Positions 15,645-38,538 of a stretch of 64,000 nucleotides of DNA are shown one piece after another. Each line of letters opens with the position of its first letter. Positions within the stretch are counted from its first letter, which is position 1. Source of the stretch: Phoronis australis (lineage: Eukaryota; Animalia; Phoronida); NCBI GenBank assembly GCA_002633005.1, contig NMRA01000096.1:761691-825690 (forward strand), given 5' to 3'. The position numbers were made by a program, and so were the translations under genes. A model generated the notes under the pieces. It saw nothing but the letters and a program-made list of their open reading frames with translations. It had not been told where the DNA came from and made no database searches.

Positions 15645-15756
15645 TCAGACCAATTTGACCAGCAGCAGTCCAAGAACAGAGCCCAGTCCTAAACCGCAGG
15701 TAAGAAAGAAGGACATCATGGCACCTGTGGTCTCGACGTGTTCCCTGGGAACTTTT
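15645..15756 (-). CDS. ENT terminal exon (TM11)
   Basis: KVPREHVETTGAMMSFFLTCGLGLGSVLGLLLVKLV*. Confidence 0.9.
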
Positions 15757-18700
15757 CTAGGAAAGTACAAAAAATTCATTAGTAATGGTAATGATTATGT
15801 TCTCAGCGTTTACAAACCATTTAAAGCTAAGCACTTTTATCTATCAGTTTTAAAACCATGAAATTTAAAGCTACCTGTAGACCATGGACTCGTTCCAACA
15901 AAACTGACTTAGCTAAGACAAATCTTAAATTTTTGTTAATTTTTAAATAAAAGTTAAATTTATTTCAAAACTAATTCAAGAAAGAGATCTTAGGTTGACT
16001 TAATTGTTTGACATACGTTTTGTGTTCATTTTGACTAACTTTCCGAATGTGGAAGTTTCAAAGTTTGGAAGTTAAGACAAATCTTAAACTTATGTTAAAG
16101 TAAAAAATGAACTGAGGTAAGTTTCTTGGAACAGACCCCGTGTTTTGGTTTCAAAAACTGCTTTCTTGATACAACACATATTTGCTCAATACATCCAAAG
16201 TAACTTCAACGTGTACATATCTTTTGCCTGAACAGAAACTGGTAGCAATAAAAAGCCAGAACGCCTCCTGGCAGCCATGTAGCTTCGACACCTGAAACTA
16301 ACCCACCCTGACTAGCAAATTTTGTGAACCTTGTATGCAACAATCATGATCTGTCTGTTCTTCTTGAGCTTAGAAATCATTTCCAATCTGGGTACGGAAA
16401 AAGATGAGACCGGTTCTATAGCGGTAAGTGGTGTAGATCAAAAGTTGCCACCTTAGACCGACAGTTGATTTGGTGCCTGTTGGCTCTAATATTTCTTCAT
16501 CATTAGGAGTGGCATAAGTCAATTAGAAGCTCTTGATTAACACAGCCTTGTAGCTTATATAGCTATTATTGTTACTTGTCTATTGGCAATTTGCTTTAGA
16601 CTGGAAGATCGGAAATTTTACAGAGAGTATGAGTGAGTGTACATCAAGCTGTCCAACAGAAAATATAGTCATGTTTTCACAAAAAGAGTGGAACAAAAGC
16701 CATTGAAGAAGGACTGCTTTCGCAGATACCCGAGAAGAAACTTAAGCCTTTGAATGTCTTGATAACACAATAACTCGTCAACACGTCATGTAATCAAACA
16801 CATAACATTAGAATTGATATGTGCCTAGTGCTAAAAGCACCAGACCACAGGACCTCCCCTGTTCACTACGTCACTAGACAACCCAAGTTCACTAGGCCGG
16901 TGGCATTCTCAATGTTCTAATGATTACAAAAAGAAAAAATGACAAAACCCAACTTCAACTGAAATATCTGCACTGCTTGATCAATTTGCATAAGTTTATG
17001 CACAATTCATTCAAAAGTAATAATTCTTACGAGAAGATGACGACTTTACAATAACAATACACATGACAAAACAGCAGTGAATTCATGTGAAGTCAACTTC
17101 CAGTTTTAGAAAGCTTGCATTTTGATAAATTACTGTTAATGGTATCCAGTTGTCACCCACCTTTACAGTTCAACATTTTATATATATATAACTTTTGTAA
17201 TTACTGATATCTGTGGTAGTTTAGTTTGTCATAATATATATGACCTTTTATCTCAACTACACATGTTGTTTCACTGTAAACTAGCTTCGGTATTGCTTCG
17301 CAGTTAGCGAATATAAATTACTGTTAATGGTATCCAGATATCTAAAAAGACATTTTACTTCCTATTATTTACCCCAATGTCCACAAAACCCAGAATTTTT
17401 CTTTCAAGTACTAGGAAACATACCCACAGAAAACAAAACAAAAACATTTCACAGCCATCAGCTTTGCATACTCTACTTATGTGATATGTTCATCATTTCA
17501 CAGCCATTAACTCTGCATACTCTACTTATGCGGTGCGTTCACCATTTAACAGCCATTAGCTCTACATACTTTACTTAATGGTGCGTTCCTCATTTCACAG
17601 CCATCAGCTTTGCATACTCTACTTATGTGGTGCGTTCATCATTTCACAGCCATCAGCTTTGCATACTCTACTTATGTGGTCGCGTTCATCGTTTCACAGC
17701 CATTAGCTCTGCATAGCCTACTTATGTGGTGCGTTCATTATTTCACAGCCATTAGCTTTGCATACTCTACTTACTGTGGTGCGTTCATCATGCACAGCCA
17801 TTAGATTTCCATACTCTACTTAATGGTACGTTCATTATTTCACAGCCATTAGCTTGGCATACTCTACTTACTGTGGTGCATTCATCATGCACAGCGTGCC
17901 AAAGTAACCATTGGTAAAAGCGAGAAGTGTGGTGAAGATGACAAAGTACCAATCACTGTTGAATACAACAGGAAGGTAATGACGAGGCTGAATGTTGCAC
18001 ATCATGATGAGAGGGATGAAGCCAACACGGAGTATACTGAACAGTGGCAGGAGGCGAGAAGGCTGGAAAAGACAGATGCAAAATAGTGCAAGTATAGGCC
18101 CATCAGTGAAACCATCCGGGCATTAAGCAATTTGGGGGATTTCATCTACGGTGCTGCTCCCATATTTCAAATGTGGGACAGTTGTCGGCAGCCCGGTGAT
18201 GTCACAGATAACTTGGTAACATGTTAACAATATGTGTCAGAGAACAACAACATGTCATTTGAGAGAACCAGAATTGAAAGCATAGGTCCACAGCAACATG
18301 TTTTTTGATGTGAGTACAGCTAAAAAACCATCGTACAAATTTAGAAATTAGAGAGTGAAAATGAGTCTCAAAATGCATCAAATAAATAATACAAAAGCAA
18401 ACCTTTTTTTTCGTAAAAAAAATCTAAATCACATGCCATCTGGTCATGCTTCAAGTGCCCGCATAAATAACCGCACAAAATGACAACAGCCCTAATGTAT
18501 TCAGCTGACTTGAATATTTTTGGCATGCAAATTCTCCATTCAATTTCAACATTAACTATGGTAAACACTACACCCAACAGAACCACTCACGAGTTGCAGA
18601 AATCCAGCTGCAGTGCGGCCACACAAATCTCCAACGTTGAAGAGCAGGAAACAGGTCAAAGGAATGAATAAGTCACCTGAAAAAATCCATTCACAGAACC

Positions 18701-21700
18701 GGTTTTATCCACTGAATAAGGGGCACCAAACTGGTTCTCAGAATGTGGGCACGTTATATCTGACCACCAAGGATGATATTTGACTGCTTCCTATAAGCAG
18801 CTACATGTCTAAACCTACCTTCCATAAAAATGACTTTTTATTTAAAGACCTGACAATAAGGTTATAAAACTGGTCTTAATAATACAGTCCTTACTCAAAT
18901 TAGAGGTGATAGTGCTGGGAAGAATTGAGACTTTCTGATTGGTGGAGATCATGCTCGACAGGCTGACTAGTCACCGTGGACCATATCCCCAAGTACTACA
19001 CCCGGGGGGTTCACAAGGTGCTCGCACGTGTTCACCAAAAATTTCTGCGAGACCCTTTATTGTGGGTGCTAATAACCAACCCCTTTTAAGGGATAGACTT
19101 TTCTGTAGAAAGAAGGCAAGTGAGTCTTTTGCGGGGCTGAGGCCAATGCAGAGGGCCTTTTGCAGGCACGAAATGAAATTTAGGGGCCTATTGGACCCCG
19201 CGCGGGTCCCGCAAAACTTGCCTACCTACAATTTTGGTACATGTCTGCAGGCACCTTGTCAATATGAGTGACTCCCCGGGTACTACTGAATTATTTGTTT
19301 TTCCCGAGTCCAGAGATCATCCTCCATCCAATAAAGACCAACTTGACACTAAATTGCAGTACCGTATTCGCCGTAATAACCGCCCAGGGCGCTTAGAAAA
19401 ACTCTGTTCGGGGGGGGGCGCTTATCATAACCCAAGGCGGTTGAAACCCGGTCTCCAAAACGGGTGAAATCGGAGGCTAAGATTCATCAAATTTACGTTC
19501 TGTGACATATCTGTAATCTATGAAAGACTTCCAACAAAACTGTGGTGCATTGGTACCAAACTTTGCTGCTAAATTACGATCATTTTACAGAAAATTGTGC
19601 TGAAATCCCAGGGCGAAAACTCGCCGACTGACTGCCTCAAGATCGCCGTCTTCGATATGGCGACTTCAATGCTTGACTAAAAATAGTTTCGACTCAAGCA
19701 AATTACCTGAAATCCTCATTAAGTTTTCTAAGTAGCGTCCCTAAGACTTCTTTTAAGTTCCCGTGGAGTCTGGATTTACGGCAGTTTTAAGTACAAATCT
19801 GCGCAACATCGTGCCATCTACATGTATGATCGGCAACACATCGAGAAAAATGTCTGGACGAACACACATGTTGTTGTCACGTGACGTTTGTTTTGAAGTT
19901 CGTCTGCGAGTAAGCGAGCGCGTGCGTGTAACCAGAGTTCATTTGCCAAAGCAGAGACCGTCTTTTGGCCAGAGCCACGCAATCTAATGAGCTAGATGTG
20001 CATTGCATCTAAAGAAACTCGCACAAGCAGTAGGCCTAAACCAGAGCGTGTTTCATTCAGCACTTGCCGGACTCGTGCTAATAACGTTCGACATTTGTTT
20101 TGGTAAGGCCCATATTAGTCGCCGTGTAGCTGGATGCGTACGTAACTATCTGACAGTTATTTTTCGGTGTAAGGGTGTGTAAGCATTCACTGTCAGTTGT
20201 CATTTTATCGGATATTCGGCTTAAAAACACCAATTATGGTTAATCAAACAATCCATCTAAAAAATAACGCAAACATGTTTTATAGCATTAGAAATTGTCG
20301 GAAATTAGGGCCAATATTCATTTCTTACCGTTTCATGAATGGATAGTTCCCGACTAATGTCTTTGATGACAGCTAGGTTCATATATGTAGCGCGCACTTT
20401 CTGGCCACGTGCGGTCAACACCGAGTTATTTTTATTCATGAGACAGTCGATGTGTCTACTGAAAGGTCAGACCATAGTGGGACACGGTCGTCATGAAAGT
20501 AGCAATGCTGTTGCGTTCTTTTTGAAGCGCTGTGTTACTTTGAAGTGTATAGTCATGGCTAAATACAAACGTAGCAGTACCGCTGGTGGTCTAGAAGACC
20601 CGTGCAAAACTTTTTTGATAAATTGAAGACGTTACTGTAGCCGAGTTTTAGGACTGAAGGTAAGTCATTGTTCGCATGTACACGTTCATGGACTGGGCGC
20701 TTATTTCAGCAAAGTCTGAAAACGCGTGGGGGGGGGCGCTTATAGGGGCATGGGCGGTTATTACGGCGAATACGGTAAGTAGTTTATAAAATGTTTGTGT
20801 GATGGCCAAAGGTGGCTCTTAGCCACATTAAGTTATGAATTACAGTAGTTTTTGTATTGGCCTGAACATATTCCGTCACACACTTTGCTCTACTATGTGA
20901 TTAAGTGGTCATAAATGCATTATCTTCATCAAAAAATCTCAGCAAACAATGAGCGGTTTTAGATACATTATGTCAAAAAGAAGCTGCTAAGTACATAAAA
21001 GTCCTTGTTTTTGGGTGACTGATGAAGGAGTGTAGACAACCACTGAAATTAAGCTGTTTGGTGATCAATGACATTGAAAATTGTTTGTTTTCATTTTCTC
21101 GTTCTTGGGAAATGAATACACTGTAATGTGATATCTACAATCAGCAAATTTATGCTCAAATGTGGTCAGTTTCACTTTAGAGTTACATCAAGCGCTACAT
21201 CGCTACATTTATGGGTTATAAAATTATTGACCAACTTCAAAGTAAGGTAAAATAACATTGGTTCACTTTATCCAGCCAAAAATAACACTCTTGAGTTCCA
21301 TTCTGAAGACAGTATAAACAAAACACCACACCAGAAGTGCTAATTGCCTCATTTCATAACTTGTTTTTTGTGACTGCTGCAAAGATATGAAATCAAAATA
21401 TTCGACACTTGCTATTGAGTGAAATGGGATGCTCTGAGGCAACAGTCAACAGTGCTCAATATACCTTTTTGTTGCTAACTGATTTTTATTCTGTCATGAA
21501 TTCCGTTTGTTACCAGTTTCAAAATCCTATAGAATTGTTAACCATTTTTAGAGATCTTGGAGACTAGATCACAGAGTTCAAGCTTTAAATTATTTAGTTC
21601 ATTTTCTCCATAATATTTGAAAGAAGAATAACCTTATCAGTTTAAGACCAAGCTTCCCATCACATTCCTCCAAAAAAACCAAATTAACATACAGAATCTG

Positions 21701-24700
21701 ATACAAACAAACACTGACAACTTCCTACATATTGCATTTTGTTAATATAATCTCCGAGTCTTTCATGCAAACAGATAAATTTACGGACTATAGGGGACAG
21801 TTGTCAACTTACCTGTGAATATACTGTTCGACTTGTCCTGGTCAACAGACACTGCGAGTGTGGCGACGGAGGGGAAGACAGACAACGTCACCAGGAAGAT
21901 AAACAGAACACTAAAACCTAACACCCATACCTGAAACGAGAACACACTTCCACTGTTTTATAACACCATTCTGCAACATGCCAAACACTAAAGGAACACA
22001 ATAGGTCTTACGGCCAAAAAACACATTTTCAGGATATCCATTGGACAGGGTGAATATCTTGAAATTATTAGCTTTGACCAGAGCTATTGTGTTGTTGTAA
22101 CTTTATTACAAATCCCCACTGCTGGTTGTTTGCTGCCAGCCACTCACTGAAATTGAAGTTCATAAATATATCACTCACTTAAAATACTCTATTTATTGTG
22201 TGTACAAGCATCAGACGGCAGCCTCTGAGGTCATGAGTTCAAATCCATTGTGAAGTTGTTCAAGANTCATTTCACAGCCATTAGCTCTGCATAGCCTACT
22301 TATGTGGTGCGTTCATCATTTCACAGCCATTAGCTCTGCATAGCCTACTTATGTGGTGCGTTCATCATTTCACAGCCATTAGCTCTGCATAGCCTACTTA
22401 TGTGGTGCGTTCATCATTTCACAGCCATTAGCTCTGCATAGCCTACTTATGTGGTGCGTTCATCATTTCACAGCCATTAGCTCTGCATAGCCTACTTATG
22501 TGGTGCGTTCATCATTTCACAGCCATTAGCTCTGCATAGCCTACTTATGTGGTGCGTTCATCATTTCACAGCCATTAGCTCTGCATAGCCTACTTATGTG
22601 GTGCGTTCATCATTTCACAGCCATTAGCTCTGCATAGCCTACTTATGTGGTGCGTTCATCATTTCACAGCCATTAGCTCTGCATAGCCTACTTATGTGGT
22701 GCGTTCATCATTTCACAGCCATTAGCTCTGCATAGCCTACTTATGTGGTGCGTTCATCATTTCACAGCCATTAGCTCTGCATAGCCTACTTATGTGTTGC
22801 GTTCATCATTTCACAGCCATTAGCTCTGCATAGCCTACTTATGTGGGGCGTTCATCATTTCACAGCCATTAGCTCTACATACTTTACTTAATGGTGCGTT
22901 CATCGTTTCACAGCCATTAGCTCTGCATAGCCTACTTATGTGGTGCGTTCATTATTTCACAGCCATTAGCTTTGCATACTCTACTTACTGTGGTGCGTTC
23001 ATCATGCACAGCCATTAGATTTCCATACTCTACTTAATGGTACGTTCATTATTTCACAGCCATTAGCTTGGCATACTCTACTTACTGTGGTGCATTCATC
23101 ATGCACAGCGTGCCAAAGTAACCATTGGTAAAAGCGAGAAGTGTGGTGAAGATGACAAAGTACCAATCACTGTTGAATACAACAGGAAGGTAATGACGAG
23201 GCTGAATGTTGCACATCATGATGAGAGGGATGAAGCCAACACGGAGTATACTGAAAAGTGGCAGGAGGCGAGAAGGCTGGAAAAGACAGATGAAAATAGT
23301 GCAAGTATAGGCCCATCAATGAAACCATCTGGGTATTAAGTAATTTGGGGGATTTCATCTACGGTACTGCTCACATATTTCAAATGTGGGACAGTTGTCG
23401 GCAGCCCGGTGATGTCACAGATAACTTGGTAACATGTTAACAATATGTGTCAGAGAACAACAACATGTCATTTGAGAGAACCAGAATTGAAACCATAGGT
23501 CCACAGCGACATGTTTTTTGATGTGAGTACAGCTAAAAAAAACATCGTACAAATTTAGAAATTAGAGAGTGAAAATGAGTCTCAAAATGCATCACATAAA
23601 TAATACAAAAGCAAACCTTTTTTTTCGTAAAAAAATTCTAAATCACATGCCATCTGGTCATGCTTCAAGTTAAGTGCCCGCATAAATAACCGCACAAAAT
23701 GACAACAGCCCTAATGTATTCAACTGACTTGAATATTTTTTGCATGCAAATTCTCCATTCAATTTTAACATTAATTATGAATGGTAAACACTACACCCAA
23801 CAGAACCACTCACGAGTTGCAGAAATCCAGCTGCAGTACGGCCACATAAATCTCCAACGTTGAAGAGCAGGAAACAGGTCAAAGGAATGAATAAGTCACC
23901 TGAAAAAATCCATGCACAGAACCGGTTTTATCCACTGAATAAGGGGTACCAAACTGGTTCTCAAAATGTGGGCACGTTATATCTGACCACCAAGAATGAT
24001 ATTTGACTGCTTCCTATAAGCAGCTACATGTCTAAACCTACCTTCCATAAAAATGACTTGTTATTTAAAGACCTGACAATAAGGTTATAAAACTGGTCTT
24101 AATAATACAGTCCTTACTCAAATTAGAGGTGATAGTGCTGTGAAGAATTGAGACTTTCTGATTGGTGGAGATCATGCTCGACAGGTTGACTAGTCACCGT
24201 GGACTATGTCCCCAAGTACTACTCCCGGGGTTCACAAGGTGCTCGCAGGTGTTCACCAAAAATTTCTGCGAGACCCTTTATTGTGGGTGCCACGTCTGCT
24301 AATACCCAACCCCTTTTAAGGGATAGACTTTTCTGTAGAAAGAAGGCAAGTGAGTCTTTTGCGGGGCTGAGGCCAATGCAGAGGGCCTTTTGCATGCACG
24401 AAATGAAATTTAGGGGCCTATTGGACCCCGCGCGGGTCCCGCAAAACTTGCTTAAAAAGTACCGCTTACCTACAATTTTTGGTACATGTCTGCAGGCACC
24501 TTGTCAATACGAGTGACTCCCCGGGTACTACTGAATTATTTGTTTTTCCCGAGTCCAGAGATCATCCTCCATCCAATAAAGATCAACTTGACACTAAATT
24601 TATAGCAGTAAGTGGTCTATAAAATGTTTGTGTGATGGCCTAAGGCGGCTCTTAGCCACGTTATGAATTTGTAGTTTTTGTATTGGCCTGAGATATTCCG

Positions 24701-27700
24701 TCTCACACTTTGCACTACTACGTGATTAAGTGGTCATAAATGCATTATCTTTATCAACAAATTTCATCAAACAATGAGCTGTTTTAGATACATTATGTCA
24801 ATAAGAAGCTGCTAAGTAGATAAAAGTCCTTGTTTTTGGGTGACTGATGAAGGAGTGTAGACAACCACTGACATTAAGCTGTTTGGTGATCAATGACATT
24901 GAAAATTTGTTTGTTTTCATTTTCTTCTTCTTGGGAAATGAATATATTGTAATGTGATATCTACAATCAGCAAATTTATGTTCAATTGTGGTCAGTTTCA
25001 CTTTAGAGTTATATCAAGCGCTACATCGCTACATTGATGGGTCATAAAATTATTGACCAACTTCAAAGTAAGATAAAATAACATTGGTTCACTTTATCCA
25101 GCCAAAAATAACACTCCTGAGTTCCATTATGAAGATAGTATTAACAAACCACCACACAAGAAGTGCTAACTTGCATCATTTCATGACTTGTTTTTTGTGA
25201 CTGCTGCAAAGATATGAAATCAAAATATTCGACACTTGCTATTGAGAGAAATGGGATGTCCTGAGGCAACAGTCAACAGTGCTCAATATACCTTTTTGTT
25301 GCTGATTTTTATTCTGTCATGAATTCCATTTGTAACCTGTTTCAACATCCTCTAGAATTGTTAACCATTTTTAGAGATCTTGGAGACTAGACCACAGAGT
25401 TCAAGCTTTAAATTATTCATTTTACCTATAATATTTGAAAGAAGACTAACCTTATCAGTTTAAGATCAAGCTTCCCATCACATTCCTCCAAACAAACCAA
25501 ATTAACATACACACAGAATCTGATACAAACAAACACTGGCAACTTCCTAAATATTGCATTTTGTTAATACAATCTCCGAGTCTTTCATGCAGACAGATAA
25601 ATTTACAGACTATAGGGGACAGTTGTCAACTTACCTGTGAATATACTGTTCGAGTTGTCCTGGTCAACAGACACTGCGAGTGTGGCGACGGAGGGGAAGA
25701 CAGACAACGTCACCAGGAAGATAAACAGAACACTAAAACCTAACACCCATACCTGAAACGAGAACACACTTCCACTGTTTTGTAACACCATTCTGCAACA
25801 TGCCAAACACTAAAGGAACATAGTAGGTTTTACGGCCAAAAAACACATTTTCAGGATATCCATTGGACAGGGTGGATATCTTGAAGTTATTAGCTTTGAC
25901 CAGAGCTATTGTGTTGTTATCACTTTATTACAAATCCTCATTGCTGGTTGTTGGCTGCCAGCCACTCACTGAAATTGAGGCTCATAAATATATCACTCAC
26001 TTAAAATACTCTATTTACAGCATCAGACGGTGACCTCTGAGGTCATGAGTTCAAATCCATTGTGAAGTTGTTCAAGAAACACCTTTTTCAATGACTGATT
26101 TTGTCTGACACTTTAAACCAACTAGCATGATGACAATCATGAGACATGGTTCTTTTCAATGGCCAGTGAAACAGGATTGGGTACGTAGTGTTCTGTCATC
26201 TGCTAATGTAAAAATTGTAGCTATTTCCCATAGAATTTACTATTAACTAGTTCAAGAACAAGAAATTACCCAGCTTGCAAATCGGAGTATTTGACAGTGA
26301 CTGGGTAACTCCTCAAAAGGTGTAACTGGAAAAGAAAAAATCTCCCAAGGGACTTCGACGATTTTAAAAATGATTTAGTAATGAACTGCTTCTTATGAAG
26401 TTTTGAATATGAAGACCTTTTTCGACAAAAGATTGCTTGAAAGCAACTTCACAATGAAAAGGTTACAAACATTGCATTAGTCAACCACCACAGCATTATA
26501 TCTGACCTCTTTGAAGACCACCAGCAGTGATGGTCCCATTCTTGTTGTCACGGTGATGCTTCCATCTTCTTCCAGACTGTCCAGGCTTTTGGCTAAGTAA
26601 ACAGAGACAACAAATGCTGAGATTATTTTGTTATTCCTCTCAAGCAAGCTATTACGGCAAGGTTTGTAAGCAATTTTCAAATTACTTTACTGATAAATGA
26701 TGAGGGGGCATACATTTCAAATAGAACTCAGAGAAAAGAATTTTGTATTTACAACATGTAAACTGGCGATTATAAATGATGAGATGAGCAGGCAAAAATT
26801 AAATTAGGACTTGCACATTTAAGCTACTTAATCATAATGGAAGAAACACCCGCAGTACCACCGAACACCAGTTGAATAACTTTAAAGAGCTTCGTACATT
26901 TGGTAAATTCGTGCATTCCAACAACTTATTCTTTTCTTCAAGAAAAAATATTCAGACATTGACACATCCTCACATGAGACACGCTGATGGGCAAAGGTCA
27001 ATATTGATAAATATAAACTAGAAGGTCACAGCAACATAGCAAAAAGGACACACATACTCATAGTGATATGACCTTGCATGTCCCACAAAATAGAGACTAG
27101 CCCATGTGACGTACAAAAAGGGGATTAGTCTCATCCCAAAACTTTGACAACAGCAAAATGTACAAGTGAATGAAAACTAATTTTTCATTATACAGTAAAC
27201 ACTGTTAGCAGCTCTGTCTCAAAGACCTTATTCTTTTCTGCATTCCAAAACAAACAATAACTTGAATGACTTTTTAGCAGATAACTCTTTAAATCAGAGA
27301 CTACAAATAGCCCACTTTTTCAGTGGAATGTTTCCACGTCAGTTTTGGCACAATTTATCACTTTCAGGGGTCCTGAATTTTGAGAACCAGTTTCGCTTGA
27401 ATATTACTCAGTGGAGAAACTGGTTCTCAAAATACAAGACCCCTGTAAGTGACTATTTCTGCAGCTTCAATATTCAACTTCCTGCTGTCCCATCAAATGC
27501 ATGACCATTACCAAAAGCAGGCACACGCCTACACTTTCTTACTTCACCATCAAAAAACTGTAATTTGGGATTAAGCCAATTATATTCAGAATACACACAA
27601 ATAAGCAGTCAATTTTGCTTTCTTGTGGGAAATGGGACGTTAAAACATGTCGATATAATAAGGTCATCTTATATATTATTAATGTTAGAAATATGGGTCT

Positions 27701-30700
27701 TGAGTAAATTCATTCTTACCAAGTTTGACCTTGGTCAAGTTGTCATCTAGAACAAATAGAAATCTCTTTGCTGCTCTCTAGTATCAAACAGAAGTTGTAC
27801 TAACATTAAGAATCCAACACAAATAGGACATCCTACACCATGAAACATACACATGAGGATTGGTGTATCAAAAATACATCTCCGACTATCAGGCATTCCA
27901 GTGATAAATAGACCAAGAGGTTATACGTTAATTATAAAATGAAGTAAATTTATTAATAAATAAGTCAGTTGTAAAACCTTTTTGGTTGAATGATTTATAC
28001 ATCATGTTCATGCTGTTACCTAATTCACTGGTCTGAATGAGGTTTAAGGGACCCTAACAAGAGTGTAGCTTTTATGCAGTTGATTGTAAGCAGTCAAAGC
28101 TTGAAGCGCCACCTTTGGGTCTATTTATCACTTCTCCTATTCACACACTTACCATGAAGATCTATGTGATGTTTTGCAAACTCCGTCTTTTTCAGGAACA
28201 AATAGGCTATCAGTGCAATGACAAGGACCAGCGTGGCTGACAGGAAGTAAGCAAGGGCGCTCATGGTGACGCTGGTTCCCACCACGATGGTGATGATGCT
28301 AGCTACAGCAGCAAATGTACCACCCATACCCTGATGGAGAGAGGGTGAGATTAGCGTGGGATAGTGGAGGGAAACGACCAGTTTGAATACTAAACATCTT
28401 GAAAGACGGTATAAAGTACAATCTCATCAATTTCAGACAAAAAAAGTTGTCAGAATTGCTTCTTTCAATTTCCAATCCTTTCAAACATTGTTTTTTCAAA
28501 ATATTGTATGGTGGTATGGTAGCTATAGTACAGAGCTTGGAACGTGGAAAAAATAATTGTCACCTAAAAACTATCAAAAATTATGTAAAACTCATTGTAG
28601 AAGTTTAAAAACAAAACTTTTACTTCAATAAAACTGTATTGGCAGCAAGATGACATATACTGAGCTAGTAAGCCCATGTGGCAGGGATATTCACATCTGT
28701 CATGTATTACTTTCAATTAGTTGCTGTCTATGCTTGTGAATCCATGTCACTAACAATAATAAATAAACAAATAAATAAATTTGTTGCACTTGTCCTGAAT
28801 TGGTGAAAGACTTACTGCAAATCACTGCACGGCAGAATCACCAATTTACAACTGACACTTAAAGAACAATATCTAATGATAGAGCGTTAAGTAATGCCAA
28901 GAACCAATCAACTACTCTGTCGCATAACTCAACTTTTGCTTGAAAACCAAGTGAACCAAGATAAATACTATGTACAAACAGTTCTTGTTAATCTACTAAT
29001 TATTTTTTTCTGCAATCAAAGATTAAGAAGCAAAATGCATCAAGCGAAAGATGTAAGAAACCCCAACCAAGAAAATTACATCACTGCAAAAATACTGCAA
29101 CAAGATATGACACAGACACTAATATCCAAAGTAATGTTGTGACTTTATTGTGTTTCGGATGTTTCTCAAAACCTTGAAAGTATTAAAAACAAGAGTTCAT
29201 TGATTTTGTGCTAGTAAAGGGTCCCAATAAACGGTGATGTTAATCCCAGTTTACATTATTGCCACTAGTCATTTGTGTAGCAGCAACACAGAAACACTGC
29301 TACAAAGTTACTGTGTTATTCTTTAATATGCAACTTCTCATCTGGCACGATACAATAGATAGAAAAGTACGAAATTGAACAGATCGAGTGTCACTAAACA
29401 CAAAATCGTTTTGTCAGGATCTCTCACTCTTCACAGTTAGACCTAATGTGCCTCTAAATCACAATGACAGAGATGCACTACAACTTGAAATGCAACTAAA
29501 TTGCGTGGCCTACAATGGACAAAACAACTTCTGTTTTACCTGCCCACCCATGAGAGCCTGAGTGTAACGGCCGGGAAAGAGGCCCGCTAAACCAAACATT
29601 CCACCTTGTAACATGGCCGAGGCAGCTGTGACGAGAAAATGGGAGAGGCACAAGACTCAGATGTGCACGCGTGTGGTAAAAAATCTAAACAACTATGTCA
29701 CTGAAGACTTTTACCAACCCTCACCAGTTGAAAATTCTCTGAAGTTTGCTAAAAAGCAAAAGTTATTGCCTTGGTGATGAAATTGCAAAAGAAAATGGAT
29801 GGGACAGGGTTCAACACAACCAGTAGAGCAATCACAGGGGGGTGGTTTCAAAGATTTATTAAAGTGATCTATAATTGTGATTAACCTCCACGCATGCAAA
29901 TCTGAATGAAATGCCTCTTAAACAGGCAGCTGCCGAAAAGAACACATGAAAATAGGGAAAGCTCAATTCAAATGAACACCTTATTAACAGCATATTGATA
30001 GATATCAAAAGGTCATTACGCTGAAAAGATGCACTTCAAGTGATACAGGGAAGTTGTCAACATCAAACTTAAATGAACATGAAGTCAGTTGTGTTTCGTT
30101 TCGGCAGTCCACCATGATTGGACAATACAGATAATGCTTAAGTGCTGTTTCATGCAACCAGCCATGCAAAGCTACCGACATCAGAGCACAGATTAATATC
30201 CATGGGGTTGGATTTGTGGATTATGCAGTAATATTATAATGCTAATCTGATAACTATTGCAACTGTTTGAAACAGAAAATGGATTACACATGGGATAAAA
30301 ATAGTGATGGCATTTATTTTAAAACCGGACATGTCATCACATAGTAGATGCAAAGAGCACCAGCCAATCGTACGCAAGAATTTGGAGTGATATGCCAGAA
30401 CCACTGAGCCATCAACTTGAACAACAGAACCAGAATAATGAATCACAACGTACCGCATTATACAGAGAAACAACAAATCATATAATAATATTATACGAAC
30501 TGGAAAATTGTTGTAACAAAAATTAGATGCGAGATCATCAAATGCAGCTCATGACAGAATGCAGTTCTCCCTTTATATGATGTTGTGGTTCAGGCGTATG
30601 ATTCGATGGTTCAAGTGATTTAGGCATGATGCAAAATTTGTGAGTGTGATTGTCTTTTTCATGGTAATGAAATTACTTGTCAAAAACCTAAAGTTTCAAA

Positions 30701-33700
30701 ATAGATTGTTTTTGTTTTCATAACATGAAAATATTTACAAGTTCGCAATTTGAATTATTAATTGTCTCCTGGGAATGAATAAAGACGATTTCTTTTTTAT
30801 TTTGGAACATCAAATTTGAATATTGAAAAAATTACAATTACAAGAAAAATCGAAACTGTTGACCCAATCACCCATTTGAGTGAGCAATTTAGCATTAGTG
30901 TAACTGACAAAGGCAGGCAACCACAGATCCATTAAATTTCAAAAGAATAAAAGCCAACATTTAAAAGATCCCGCAGAAAGCTTTGTTCCGTCTGCTCCCC
31001 TTGGGGCAGCCATCTTACCTGACCCGACATTAGGGCTTGCACGTATTTACTGGGAAACATGCAGGCCAAACCAACAGAAGCACCAGTCAAGATGGCTGAA
31101 CAGGCTGTCGCAATGAAGATAAAGTTTCATAAACAAAACACAAGTCATCATAGCTCAATGGAGTTGGATGCTAAATATTTAGACATTTAAAGTTGTACTT
31201 AATAAAAATCAGTTGTACATAATATTTGCATTTAAAATATCTTCAAAATATCCTTTTCTTAATTTATGTGTATACTTACCATTAATAATGACTACTGTAA
31301 CTATGGTGAATGCAAAGAAAGTAATCTGCCCTACAAATAGATAAAAACAAAATCTGTAACAATAATTAGAACATCCATTACCTGACGTGATGTGTGACAG
31401 TTAACAAGCGAATGGGAATTAATGTATTGAATGCTAATAAATTTCTCACATTTTTGCATTTTTTATCATGAGATCTTAACAACCTTGCTCGTGTTTGTGT
31501 TAATGAAACATGACATTTAGTAACTAGTGAAGCCATCACAAGACACACAATTTGTCACATGAGTTTCTTGCCAACTGACTATTTACAGGTAAATGGAAAT
31601 AAAATCTAATAGCCAAGAATGACATTCAGTGTGAAAAATCACAAGACACTAATTGTACCCCATGATCAAGTGCTTAAAAAATCAATAAGGTAACTGAGTA
31701 CTATGAAGACAACATCTCAGCAGGTGACATTGTTTTTATGAGAAGGGCGGGGAATAACAAGTAAGAATAGCATATTTTGTTTACACAAAATCAGAACGGG
31801 GAGACAATCATAAATCACAAAGGGGAGACAACTGAGTTTGTTTCATAAAAAGTAACTTAACAATTAATTAATTAAGAAATTTGATCTTAAAATTATTTCT
31901 GAAAAATAATCAAGTCTCACTTGGGCGAAAATACAGTCTTTGAGAACATACACATGATTGCTACCAAGATAATTTCTATGAATTACTTCTTGACTGTGAT
32001 GTGATCATAATTACTTAGCTAAATCTTTATTCAGCAATTTTCTGTCTTAAGTCATCAGTCACATTCATGAAACAGACCCTTGAATTAGTCACATGACCCT
32101 TTGATGGAACTTAAGGCCTTTTCCCATTCAGTCAATTCCCCTACTATCGAAGCTTCCATGATAACCAGTGGTTAACTGCAAAGTTAAGCTTTACTGTTTC
32201 CTTCAGTGGAGTTATTGCAAGGTATATGAGTATCAGATGATCTGAACAAAGGCAATATGAAAGTATGGTGGGAACTCATTTTGCGTACGTTCAGTGAGTT
32301 TTTTGGGAATCCAACAAATAAACAAATCAACAGAAACCGAACAATTGTGCTGCCAAAATGATATTATCAGAACAAAATATTAACAAATATCAACCAGTCA
32401 CTGCCCTCTGTTGGCAAACGCAATGGCCCCTGCTGATAACTTTGATGGCATCGAAATTAAGTGTTCCCACTGTAGCAAAGTGTCAACACGTCACAGTTAA
32501 ATCCACCTCTTTACTCTGCAGTAAACTCGTGCTGTTACCTTCGATCCTAAGTGTTAAATTTTAAATTAAGTGTTTCCCATTGACCAAAAACTTTGCCAAC
32601 GCCAAAGCTTAGGAGCCAGTGGAAAAGGCGTTTGGGATAGCTACGGAGCTGACACAATGTCCACTTACAGGGGTCAGTGTTGACCAATACCAGAGTGACT
32701 GTGCCAGCAAACATAAGCAACATAATGATGAAAGAGGCCACTAGACGAACCTTGATGGGGATCCTGCAATAGAAGACGAATCCAGTAACATGGTGTCACC
32801 CAGGTGAATCCATGACTTATCAGGGGATGTTCAGTGACGAAATTCCCGTTTTGCGGAACATTCAGGATAAGGACAGAAGTTGACAGAACCGTGATTAATG
32901 TGATCGGGAAGTGAAGTTTAGTTCCCTGATTAAGAAATTCATGCCTAAAGAAAAGCATTTAAATGTGCGATCTGTAAAACACAAGGCTAATAATACGTTG
33001 AACCCTTCAGTGCTAACCGTTTTCAAAAATCTGTAGCAAACAGTCTTGTTTTCTGGAACTGACTTCATATGTTTCACAACATATAAATCCTCACATCCAT
33101 GCTGTTTACATAAACTGACCAACCAAACCTTAATTGTGACTGGTTAACGGTATCACTACATGGGGGCTTTAAGGATCACTCTGAAGACGAGAAATACCCA
33201 CGACAGCAAAGACCCGTTAATCCAGGATACAATTAAAGGTGGAAAGCAGAATGCGACTTTTTGTCAATCACTTCATTGTTAGCTGCAGAAAACATTTGAA
33301 AAATTTTCGAGCATTTACAGTGACTCATTTAGTCATTGAAAAACGACACTTTGCACAGAAACTTTGGTGAGAAATTAAAGACCTTTTATCTTCTATTCTA
33401 GACCAGAACAGGCAATACTTTCACTTACCATTTCGTAGCTAGTGTGTTGAACACATTGAACAAAATGTTAGGAATCATGGCTGCTATTGAGAAGTAGGTC
33501 TCAAATGTATTCTGGAGTTCTGTTCTGTGGGCTGGCTTGTTGTAAATGGCTGGGTCGTTGATGCTCACATTTCTGAACTTGAAGCGAAAGTACTAAAAGA
33601 GAGTTGAAGAAACATTTAATTGGCCGCCTGACAACGCCACCTATCATTTATGAAGCAAATCTCAATCAATTTGTACTTTTAAGAACTCACTTGGAACTTG

Positions 33701-36700: not shown

Positions 36701-38538
36701 AATACCAACAAAAAGCACCCTCCTTACATGAAGACAGCTGACAGTTATAGGGTTTGTGGCACATTTAGAGTACTTAGGTATAATTAAGGGATTACAACCA
36801 TTGTCATGCACAGTAAGAAGACTGTCAAATTCAAGGGGCCAGTGTGGCCCACAGCAAAACAACAGATGTCATGACACCTGGTGCCAATTATCTGAATGAA
36901 GTGACACATACTAACGGTAAACACTTGTGTTTCTTGGGAAGGTTTAAAGTAAAAGAAATTCACCTGATTGGCAGTGATGAAGAAATTCCATGGTAACAAT
37001 GAGGCTATCCCAAGGAGATAAAAAATAATGTAGACAAGTCGCAACCTGCAAAGAGAGTTGGTTTTATTATATCATGATAGGTCTGTAAAGTAAATCTAAA
37101 TACGACGTAAGTCCCAGTTTACAAAACAACACTTGAATTTCACACTATTTACCCACAATGCTGCAACATCTGCCGAGCAGATCTCTAGCCTCGTTTTTGC
37201 ACCATTGAAGTTTCTCACGTTATATGTTGGTACCACACTTTGCTGCTTTTTTCAAGTTTTCTTGGCTGCATTAATCGTATTCAACCTTCTTATGCCAGTG
37301 AAGTGTTACTGCTGTGTTGTGGGTTGCAACTCCAATAACAAAAAGTTGGATAGACTTGAAAAATAGCCATGGATGCCATATTTTCCAACACAATTCCTAG
37401 AATCAGGTCGACATTTCTAAAATGAGACCAGCGTAACAACTTGTATTCCTTCCTCCGAAAAAAAGAGATTTCTATCTGGAACCAGCCTATGGACAATACT
37501 TAAACTAATTCATTACAACATGTTAGGATCTAGAATAAAAAAGCACATATGTAAATAGTTTTATATGAATCTACTCTTCTATTTATTTGATATGACATTC
37601 AGAACTCCGAAGTTAGCCAAATTTGGAATTTTTCTGTGGTCTTGCATAACCTTAAGCACCGGATACAATGTAATATACAACTTATCAACTGCCAATTCAC
37701 CGACTAATAGTTCACAATCTGTTAGATATGAGTACTGATCGACCACTTCAATCATACCTTTGAACAGAATTAAAAGCAAAAGGTGAGACAATACATATCA
37801 TCGGTGGATGGAGCAGCTCATTAACCAATTTATTTTTCGATTGATGAAATAAAGCAATTTATACAATATGGATGAAAACAGTTACATGTGAATAATAGAT
37901 TTGATTTAAATACTGCATCAAAACCGGAATGATTTGATTTTTACTTTTGTCCAAAATTTGTGAAAGCACAATTTTAAACATGTGGCCAAGTAAATTACCG
38001 TGGTATTTCTGAATGTTTTAGGATTGATTCAACTTAATTGCAAGGGTAATTAAACGATCAAAGAACACCCAAAAACGTCGAAGTTCATTAACAGGTAAGT
38101 AAAATTGGTTAAATACACGAACAGTTGTCGTTATTAACAATCTTTATTCCGTTCCGTTGTATCCTTGGAACAAAGTTCGACACTCACCAGAACAAATTGG
38201 TAAAGCAACAGGTAAGTTTAAACTTTTTGGGCTTTCTGGTTTTCAGCATATTTTCTCTCAACAGTTATCACCAGCCCCTGGCAATAACTGTTGGTTTACA
38301 AGTTACCCAAGAGGATTGCCAACATTCCCCCTGGAGCTGAGGTCAAGATCGGATTGACCAGAAGGACGAACTTAAGTTAATGACTTATCACTTACTTGTC
38401 TCTCGGGACATAAGTTCGGGATGAAATGAGAACACTCCGTTCATCTTCAGTTTCACTGTCATAGTCTTGAACACTCATAGTGTCACTGTTGTTATTGGTC
38501 CTGCTTGAGAGGCTCTCAACTAACTCAACGTCACTCAT
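15645..38538 (-). CDS. Equilibrative nucleoside transporter, SLC29 family (ENT3-like), 12 exons per transcript, 463 aa
   Basis: Exons on -: 38538-38396, 37045-36964, 33592-33429, 32763-32669, 31330-31280, [31104-31019 OR 29625-29540], 28330-28153, 26592-26507, 25752-25635, 23899-23814, 23276-23086, 15756-15645. Exons 9-11 are also duplicated at 21930-21813, 18676-18591 and 18062-17872. Family motifs: LGIASLLPWNFFITA, FGLAGLFP..Y.QALMGGQGMGG, VTLSVFP, FNVGDLCGR, FTNGY, GLGLGS. Confidence 0.93.
15886..16138. mobile_element. Degenerate MITE (PIF/Harbinger-like family)
   Basis: Imperfect terminal inverted repeats ggactcgttccaacaaaact... / ...agtttcttggaacagaccc; relatives at ~31835-32080 and ~49707-49960. 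Confidence 0.45.
17445..17896. repeat. 49-bp minisatellite, about 9 units (haplotype 1)
   Basis: Unit tcatttcacagccattagctctgcatagcctacttatgtggtgcgttca, running into the end of ENT exon 11. Confidence 0.92.
17872..18062 (-). CDS. ENT exon 11, second haplotype copy
   Basis: Near-identical to 23086-23276. Confidence 0.7.
18591..18676 (-). CDS. ENT exon 10, second haplotype copy
   Basis: Synonymous variants of 23814-23899. Confidence 0.7.
19001..19280. mobile_element. MITE with CCCGGGG termini (allelic copy at 24224-24525)
   Basis: Imperfect TIRs cccggggg.ttcacaaggtg... / ...caccttgtc..gactccccggg. TACTACT lies on both sides in the 24224 copy. Confidence 0.6.
19362..20775. mobile_element. Non-autonomous Tc1/mariner superfamily (Tc2/pogo-like) DNA transposon, 1.4 kb, polymorphic
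   Basis: Perfect TIR CCGTATTCGCCGTAATAACCGCCCA / TGGGCGGTTATTACGGCGAATACGG with TA duplicated. Empty site gcagTAagt at ~24605-24613. No transposase ORF. Confidence 0.9.
21813..21930 (-). CDS. ENT exon 9, second haplotype copy
   Basis: Near-identical to 25635-25752, with a K/N difference (DQDK vs DQDN). Confidence 0.7.
22267..23109. repeat. 49-bp minisatellite, at least 17 units (haplotype 2)
   Basis: Same unit, period 49 (22267, 22316...); many copies are identical. Confidence 0.95.
23086..23276 (-). CDS. ENT exon 11
   Basis: PSRLLPLFSILRVGFIPLIMMCNIQPR...FTNGYFGTLCMMNAP. Confidence 0.85.
23814..23899 (-). CDS. ENT exon 10
   Basis: DLFIPLTCFLLFNVGDLCGRTAAGFLQL. Confidence 0.85.
24224..24525. 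mobile_element. MITE with CCCGGGG termini, haplotype 2 copy
   Basis: TACTACT direct repeats on both flanks; imperfect TIRs. Confidence 0.6.
25635..25752 (-). CDS. ENT exon 9
   Basis: VWVLGFSVLFIFLVTLSVFPSVATLAVSVDQDNSNSIFT. Confidence 0.88.
26507..26592 (-). CDS. ENT exon 8 (cytoplasmic loop)
   Basis: KSLDSLEEDGSITVTTRMGPSLLVVFKE; phases fit neighbouring exons. Confidence 0.8.
27365..27445. repeat. 81-bp palindromic mini-element
   Basis: caggggtcctgaattttgagaaccagtttc ... gaaactggttctcaaaatacaagacccctg; related core at ~18690-18748. Confidence 0.65.
28153..28330 (-). CDS. ENT exon 7
   Basis: GMGGTFAAVASIITI...SALAYFLSA...TEFAKHH. Confidence 0.92.
29540..29625 (-). CDS. ENT alternative exon 6B (canonical type)
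   Basis: 86 nt, phase 1-0, (A)ASAMLQGGMFGLAGLFPGRYTQALMGGQ; cacag| and |gtaaaa. Confidence 0.88.
31019..31104 (-). CDS. ENT alternative exon 6A
   Basis: 86 nt, phase 1-0, (A)CSAILTGASVGLACMFPSKYVQALMSGQ; gacag| and |gtaaga. Confidence 0.8.
31280..31330 (-). CDS. ENT exon 5
   Basis: WQITFFAFTIVTVVIIN; gtag| and |gtaagt. Confidence 0.88.
32669..32763 (-). CDS. ENT exon 4
   Basis: IPIKVRLVASFIIMLLMFAGTVTLVLVNTDP. Confidence 0.9.
33429..33592 (-). CDS. ENT exon 3
   Basis: YFRFKFRNVS...LQNTFETYFSIAAMIPNILFNVFNT. Confidence 0.9.
34072..34578. mobile_element. PIF/Harbinger-type MITE
   Basis: TIR AGGTCCTTTCATATTGAC / GTTAGTATGAAAGGCCCT with TAA on both flanks; internal TTCATACTG repeats. Confidence 0.7.
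35524..35766. mobile_element. Tc1/mariner-type MITE
   Basis: TA|CGGTAAAATCTCATCAATTTAGGACA ... TGTCCGAAATTGGTGAGGTTTTACCA|TA. Confidence 0.65.
36964..37045 (-). CDS. ENT exon 2 (TM1)
   Basis: LRLVYIIFYLLGIASLLPWNFFITANQ. Confidence 0.92.
38396..38538 (-). CDS. ENT exon 1 (acidic N-terminal tail with dileucine-type motif)
   Basis: MSDVELVES...DSETEDERSVLISSRTYVPRD, donor AA|gtaagt; phase fits exon 2. Confidence 0.8.

What the first reader, a model, noticed from the sequence alone, without database searches (positions are those of the whole stretch)
29540..31104. Mutually exclusive exon pair that rewires the substrate pocket of a nucleoside transporter
Seen: two paralogous exons of identical length (86 nt) and phase (1-0) sit in tandem between ENT exons 5 and 7. 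Both have intact AG/GT sites and open frames. 6A encodes ACSAILTGASVGLACMFPSKYVQALMSGQ; 6B encodes AASAMLQGGMFGLAGLFPGRYTQALMGGQ. They are heavily diverged at the DNA level and their flanking introns look unrelated, so this is an old duplication, unlike the N-centred haplotype duplicates. Including both or neither shifts the frame, so use must be either/or. Knowledge (recalled): this segment corresponds to human ENT1 ~S152-Q180 (TM4 to TM5), including the nucleobase-contacting Gln158 and the NBMPR-sensitivity position 154 (Ser in both exons). 6B keeps LQG..FG; 6A has LTG..VG. Inference: one gene may produce two transporters with different substrate or inhibitor specificity by splicing. I am not aware of this being described for SLC29, but have not searched.
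Basis: partly seen in the sequence, partly recalled or inferred. Interest (0 to 1): 0.82.

Follow-up and report, generated by a model that had tools for sequence, protein, structure and literature searches.

The report
Swappable pocket exon in nucleoside transporter
An invertebrate nucleoside-transporter gene carries two old copies of one exon, RNA reads show each copy spliced in on its own, and the swap changes the residue that grips the base in the human protein, so one gene likely makes two transporters predicted to differ in what they bind.

Summary
Observation confirmed. Two 86-nt, phase 1-0, AG/GT exons (6A 31104-31019, 6B 29625-29540) lie between exons 5 and 7 of one ENT/SLC29 gene; both or neither gives an early stop. 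RNA reads show all four joints: 5>6B 11/9/8 and 5>6A 0/2/13 in three runs, 6A>7 1/2/6, 6B>7 only 3 reads in one run; no 6A>6B or 5>7 joint was listed. Both copies are under purifying selection (pS 0.71, pN 0.31). At human ENT1 position 158, a base-binding Gln, 6B keeps Gln and 6A has Thr; 0 of 30 vertebrate ENT3 and 0 of 23 mollusc homologs have Gln there, against 21 of 28 other invertebrates. A predicted 30-bp stem covers the likely 6B branch point. No relative with the pair was found (28 genomic loci, 16 isoform groups). Altered specificity is inferred, not tested. Verdict: a real new case of a known kind (duplicated mutually exclusive exons in solute carriers); none found in print for SLC29. 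The scan noted an unproven similar pair in a Perkinsus transporter.

The parts
31019..31104 (-). Exon 6A (upstream alternative; Thr at hENT1 158, Val at 162)
   Evidence: AG/GT, open frame; joints 5>6A 0/2/13 and 6A>7 1/2/6 plus one contig; PF01733 E 0.00037
29540..29625 (-). Exon 6B (downstream alternative; Gln at 158, Phe at 162)
   Evidence: Joints 5>6B 11/9/8; 6B>7 3 reads in X1; PF01733 E 4.2e-07; matches 6ob6_A
31280..31330 (-). Exon 5, shared upstream exon (51 nt)
   Evidence: Joints to exon 4, 6A and 6B
28153..28330 (-). Exon 7, shared downstream exon (178 nt)
   Evidence: Joints from 6A and 6B, loose ends to exon 8
29889..29918 (-). 5' arm of a predicted stem in the 6A-6B intron
   Evidence: Inverted repeat I2; fold z -4.54; prediction only
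29644..29673 (-). 3' arm of the predicted stem, 19-48 nt upstream of the 6B acceptor, over the likely branch point
   Evidence: branch point inferred from position and motif
38396..38538 (-). Exon 1 (coding start)
   Evidence: Gene model, frame continuity; joint to exon 2 not tested with reads
36964..37045 (-). Exon 2
   Evidence: tblastn; loose ends at exon 3 match it
33429..33592 (-). Exon 3
   Evidence: tblastn; joint to exon 4 9/8/20
32669..32763 (-). Exon 4
   Evidence: Joint to exon 5 13/11/39
26507..26592 (-). Exon 8
   Evidence: Loose ends at exon 7 match it, 9/13/47; frame
23086..25752 (-). Exons 9-11, first copy (25752-25635, 23899-23814, 23276-23086)
   Evidence: tblastn and Pfam; not covered by reads here
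15645..15757 (-). Likely last exon with stop codon (approximate ends)
   Evidence: tblastn, translation

Best explanation
One ENT/SLC29 gene carries two old tandem copies of exon 6 that are each spliced in alone, likely giving two full-length transporters that differ at 12 residues of the TM4-TM5 segment and are predicted to differ in base binding or inhibitor sensitivity. Shown: both exons are joined to the same exons 5 and 7; usage differs between three runs (B-rich, B-rich, A-rich); both copies keep coding constraint. Inferred: 6B keeps the Gln158/Phe162 pocket of ENT1/2-type proteins, 6A puts smaller residues (Thr158, Ser161, Val162) on roughly the same helix face, as ENT3 and mollusc proteins do at 158, which would lose or move a hydrogen bond to the base and widen the pocket. 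Exclusivity is likely secured by the frameshift (decay of double-inclusion or skipping products), possibly helped by a stem that hides the 6B branch point until opened. Steric hindrance and U2/U12 mismatch do not apply (1393-nt intron, ordinary GT-AG sites).
For: Joints in X1/X2/X3: 5>6B 11/9/8, 5>6A 0/2/13, 6A>7 1/2/6; 6B>7 3 reads in X1, 8 more short 5>6A overhangs in X3; no 6A>6B or 5>7 joint listed. Usage differs: chi-square p 0.0009 on reads, 0.006 on distinct starts. pS 0.71 vs pN 0.31, Fisher p 0.0009; a copy neutral for 0.5 changes per site stays intact and 16/28 alike in 0.17% of 20000 simulations. 6A scores at the 38th and 6B at the 95th percentile of 139 natural segments. Gln158 hydrogen-bonds the NBMPR base, and loss of the equivalent Gln kills PfENT1 (PMC10729961 passages). 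Residue tallies. Stem: only 1 of 11 acceptors of the gene has it, z -4.5.
Against: 6B>7 is thinly seen (3 reads in one of three runs, against 28 reads for 5>6B); about 3-fold depth runs on past the 6B donor in X1 and X2, and sense-strand depth of 10-20 covers much of the 6A-6B intron in X3, so much of the RNA may be incompletely spliced. Joints under 3 reads per run are not listed, so rare 6A>6B joints are not excluded. Only 18-19% of each run was read; tissue is unknown and the samples carry different alleles, so ratio differences may be genetic. Thr and Ser at 158 are common (57 of 139), so the change may be mild. No protein, transport or decay data. No relative with the pair. The stem window was chosen after seeing the repeat; 1 of 50 background windows folds better and 4 more reach z -3.0 to -3.6.
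Confidence: 0.6

Rival explanations
1. Both isoforms are made and work, but are functionally near-equivalent; the pair persists for regulation of amount, location or stability rather than specificity.
For: Ser154, Gly179 and Gln180 are shared; Thr at 158 occurs in 30 of 139 natural segments; the pair is absent from all relatives examined.
Against: The changes fall on a ligand-contacting residue and on 162, where Val occurs in 0 of 139 homologs; variable residues of such exons tend to lie near functional sites (PMC7954323 abstract and passages).
Confidence: 0.25
2. The cluster mainly acts as an expression switch: one route ends in retained-intron or intron-terminated RNA (truncated or degraded), and only one isoform matters as protein.
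For: Intronic sense depth is high only around the cluster, zero in two bins of intron 3; in X3 depth rises to 19.9 at 29801-29887 and falls to 5.8 before 6B, downstream of an AATAAA at 29860; 6B>7 joints are few.
Against: Both exons show purifying selection on protein; all four in-frame joints exist; depth after the 6B donor is 0.02 in X3.
Confidence: 0.1
3. 6A is a dead exon, an exon of a paralogous gene, or an uncollapsed allele.
For: The window holds haplotype-like duplicates elsewhere; X1 has 0 reads for 5>6A.
Against: 6A is joined to this gene's exons 5 and 7; 58% DNA identity and unrelated introns against 93-97% for the duplicates; X2 and X3 use both exons; X3 has depth in 30 of 30 bins across both.
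Confidence: 0.03

Closest known systems
Tandem-duplicated mutually exclusive exons in solute carriers (SLC7A2, SLC39A14, SLC12A1, SLC25A3)
   Same: Internal homologous exons of equal length, one per mRNA; for SLC12A1 double inclusion shifts the frame (PMC8373072 passages and supplement). That these swaps change substrate affinity is recalled, not read here.
   Different: Different family (SLC29); no SLC29 gene is in that human catalogue (0 hits, positive controls found); those pairs are conserved across vertebrates, this one was found in one species.
Human ENT1 (SLC29A1; PDB 6OB6)
   Same: Same family; 6B matches its 155-180 segment and keeps Gln158; L26, W29, D341, R345 motifs are present in shared exons.
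   Different: Best named homologs are only 47-50% identical (Lingula, Lineus); orthology to ENT1 versus ENT3 is unresolved.
Vertebrate ENT3 and mollusc ENT3-like proteins
   Same: Non-Gln residue at 158 (0 of 30 and 0 of 23 have Gln; Thr in 7 and 15), like 6A.
   Different: There it is fixed in a gene; here it is optional. Likeness at one residue does not make isoform A an ENT3: lysosomal targeting and proton dependence (recalled ENT3 traits) were not tested.
RNA-structure control of mutually exclusive exons (Dscam docking/selector type)
   Same: A predicted intronic stem lies at the cluster.
   Different: One stem only, masking the 6B branch region; no competing partner found; no conservation evidence.

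Membership tests
Homologous mutually exclusive exon pair | Adjacent homologous exons of like length, same phase and intact splice sites | tested here: met
Homologous mutually exclusive exon pair | Each exon joined to both shared flanking exons in RNA | tested here: met
   6B>7 rests on 3 reads in one run
Homologous mutually exclusive exon pair | No joint between the two, no skipping of both | tested here: met
   None listed in 4 runs; listing threshold 3 reads from 2 starts per run
Homologous mutually exclusive exon pair | Both copies under coding constraint | tested here: met
   pS 0.71, pN 0.31, p 0.0009
Homologous mutually exclusive exon pair | Pair conserved in related species (common, not required) | tested here: inconclusive
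   Single exon in 9 of 9 loci spanning exons 4-7 and in 16 isoform groups, but all are distant; no close relative found
Homologous mutually exclusive exon pair | Both protein isoforms made | not testable with these tools
   No proteomics
ENT/SLC29 family | PF01733 domain | tested here: met
   6 of 7 exons scanned hit PF01733, 3 above the curated cut-off
ENT/SLC29 family | Ligand residues L26, W29, Q158, D341, R345 of hENT1 | tested here: met
   All in isoform B; isoform A lacks Q158
ENT/SLC29 family | Nucleoside transport | not testable with these tools
   Needs uptake assay
ENT3 orthologue | Groups with vertebrate ENT3 in a tree | tested here: inconclusive
   Quick tree without exon 6: open fork beside Lingula and Lineus, no starred set holds it
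Docking-site/selector splicing | One site pairing alternately with two selectors | tested here: not met
   Intron 5 duplexes no better than shuffles, 4/25 and 11/25; best alternative partner of the stem arms 2/60 in 8 tests

The most novel reading that the evidence does not exclude
A regulated splice switch, gated by a stem over the 6B branch point, lets one gene make both an ENT1/2-like (Gln158) and an ENT3-like (Thr158) pocket, doing by splicing what vertebrates did by gene duplication; with the unproven Perkinsus pair this would point to repeated evolution of pocket switching in nucleoside transporters.
Probability: 0.3. Interest if true: 0.72.

Novelty: new member of a known kind. Interest (0 to 1): 0.5.

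Why it matters
The two isoforms are identical except for 12 residues around the base-binding Gln, both kept by selection. They are a natural matched pair for testing what Gln versus Thr at ENT position 158 does, a difference that separates ENT1/2 from ENT3 in the sample examined and bears on nucleoside-drug uptake and inhibitor binding. It would add SLC29 to the transporter families tuned by duplicated exons. The mechanism class is well known and the pair seems restricted to one lineage, which limits the surprise.

Tried and rejected
No genome held, so no genome-wide paralog check. No indexed RNA holder listed; the reads came from same-species runs. Single-exon protein searches found no close relative: 2 hits at 51-58%, none; weak evidence. 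Metagenome scan: L001's second match is a near-identical 3' half without acceptor, not a pair; L016 and L027 are chance matches. Isoforms of 16 groups show no alternative exon 6 beyond single-residue differences; Lingula X1/X2 differ by a 29-aa loop elsewhere; cluster lists were capped at 15 members. First alignment A1 was poor and dropped. Careful tree unfinished; only the quick tree was read. Steric hindrance and U12 incompatibility rejected from intron length and donor sequences. Docking/selector pairing not found. Supplements of PMC5740500 and PMC7954323 gave no hit even for positive controls, so they say nothing; the Drosophila exome paper is not held. No ENT3 structure in the PDB search and no ENT3 structure paper. 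No fold was run because single exons are too short to place a pocket.

Full report
Observation. A gene model over exons 1-11 is open with either exon and stops at codon 220 with both and codon 189 with neither; a likely last exon lies near 15757-15645. Six of seven exons scanned hit PF01733. The exon-6 pattern matches twice in the window and never in 100 shuffles; a profile scan finds no third copy.

RNA. Three raw-read runs (18-19% of each read) and one contig set of the same species label were laid on the locus; reads are stranded and fit a minus-strand transcript. Joints in X1/X2/X3: 3>4 9/8/20, 4>5 13/11/39, 5>6B 11/9/8, 5>6A 0/2/13, 6A>7 1/2/6 plus an X4 contig. A second lay showed 6B>7 as a loose end matching exon 7 in 3 reads of X1, and 8 further short 5>6A overhangs in X3. 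No 6A>6B and no 5>7 joint was listed; the threshold is 3 reads from 2 starts in a run. Usage differs between runs (p 0.0009 on reads, 0.006 on starts; small counts), but tissue is unknown and the samples differ in alleles. Against a clean picture: 6B>7 is thin, depth of about 3 continues past the 6B donor in X1 and X2 (0.02 in X3), and X3 has depth 10-20 over much of the 6A-6B intron, dropping to 5.8 before 6B. Slow splicing or intronic polyadenylation could explain this.

Age and selection. The exons share 50 of 86 nt; identity by codon position is 19, 22 and 10 of 29. pS is 0.71 and pN 0.31 (Fisher p 0.0009); a copy neutral for 0.5 changes per site would be intact and this similar in 0.17% of 20000 simulations. 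Each copy is about as far from the other as from exon 6 of distant animals (45-56 of 86 nt), so the duplication is old and cannot be dated here.

Pocket. 6B aligns to chain 6ob6_A; the +1 offset was fixed on L26 and W29, so the exons span human ENT1 152-180. Passages of PMC10729961 state that Gln158 hydrogen-bonds the NBMPR base and that mutating the equivalent Gln135 abolishes PfENT1 transport; PMC12061832 passages name Q158 as an inhibitor anchor; PMC11787452 passages link Gly154 to adenosine recognition; PMC5359181 passages show Gly179 matters and cite, by title only, Ser160. Twelve of 28 residues differ, at 153, 156, 158, 160, 161, 162, 166, 167, 170, 171, 173 and 178. Among 139 distinct segments from 156 homologs of 380 aa or more, position 158 is Gln 56, Thr 30, Ser 27; 6A's Val162 occurs in 0. 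In hand-picked named groups (unnamed rows left out) Gln is in 3 of 3 vertebrate ENT1/2, 21 of 28 other invertebrates, 0 of 30 vertebrate ENT3 and 0 of 23 molluscs. On an ideal helix 162 lies 40 degrees and 161 60 degrees from 158. So 6B looks ancestral and 6A shrinks the pocket-facing side chains, paralleling ENT3 at 158. This is inference; Thr is evidently tolerated, which argues both that 6A works and that the effect may be modest.

Relatives. Best named homologs are Lingula (49-50%) and Lineus (47%); a quick tree without exon 6 leaves the gene in an open fork with them, suggesting a lophotrochozoan lineage without a close relative in the collections. Of 30 metagenome loci, 28 carry an ENT exon 6 with the same boundaries (13 distinct); none has a second full copy, and 9 span exons 4 to 7. 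Sixteen groups of isoforms or cluster members show one exon-6 type each. The pair is therefore not shown outside this species.

Exclusion mechanism. The 1393-nt intron and ordinary donors rule out steric and U2/U12 routes; passages of PMC5740500 list these routes and note that 60% of human clusters have lengths not divisible by three. The frameshift is the default safeguard. An inverted repeat (29889-29918 with 29644-29673) folds with z -4.54 and pairs the region 19-48 nt upstream of the 6B acceptor. It is the only such case among 11 acceptors of the gene, but 1 of 50 background windows folds better and the window was chosen after the fact. No competing partner was found. It is a candidate only.

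Literature. Searches for mutually exclusive or duplicated exons with ENT/SLC29 terms (open-access library only) gave no report of such a pair; the hits that were opened (PMC8750444, PMC12025770; passages) concern other events, PMC11552377 was seen only as a listing, and 40 of 93 papers were listed, none of the 40 holding the words nucleoside transporter. The human catalogue of PMC8373072 holds SLC7A2 and SLC39A14 but no SLC29 gene (supplement). Gene tables of PMC5740500 and PMC7954323 were not searchable and could bear on this. PMC7954323 (abstract, passages) shows that variable residues of such exons generally cluster near functional sites, so the principle is established. PMC8246967 and PMC6844579 (passages) added nothing. 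The scan's own note e1-9722528 describes an unproven duplicated pair in a Perkinsus nucleoside transporter; I could not test it.

Verdict. A real, expressed, selected pair of mutually exclusive exons: a new member of a known kind, apparently first for SLC29 within the searches made. Interest 0.5.

Noticed in passing
window 17445-22265 vs 22660-26077: Exons 9-11 and their introns are duplicated at 93-95% identity around a single N at 22266; likely an uncollapsed allele, not tested with reads.
   Followed up: partly
window 29627-31018: Sense-strand intronic depth in X3 rises towards 29800-29890 and drops before 6B; X1 and X2 have almost none at 29714-29974. Possible intronic polyadenylation after 6A (AATAAA at 29860, 30318, 30801), retention, or an allele difference over the stem.
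   Followed up: partly
window 28331-28520: Reads run unspliced from exon 7 into the upstream intron (depth 7/0/8 at 28339), in X1 mostly from one allele.
   Followed up: no
window 31894-31932 and 28415-28444: Short stretches matched by many reads of other transcripts (loose ends on both sides); likely repeats.
   Followed up: no
window 27358-27452: Strong inverted repeat in intron 7 (fold z -10.2), probably a small mobile element.
   Followed up: no
window 22267-23109 and 17445-17895: 49-nt minisatellite right after exon 11 in both copies.
   Followed up: no
L001:528-568: Near-identical duplicate of the 3' half of exon 6 with its donor, no acceptor, 315 nt downstream of the full exon: a possible early stage of exon duplication.
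   Followed up: partly
window 28185, 28188, 31310, 33529: Amino-acid-changing alleles in shared exons among the runs; none was listed inside 6A or 6B, though the lists were truncated.
   Followed up: partly
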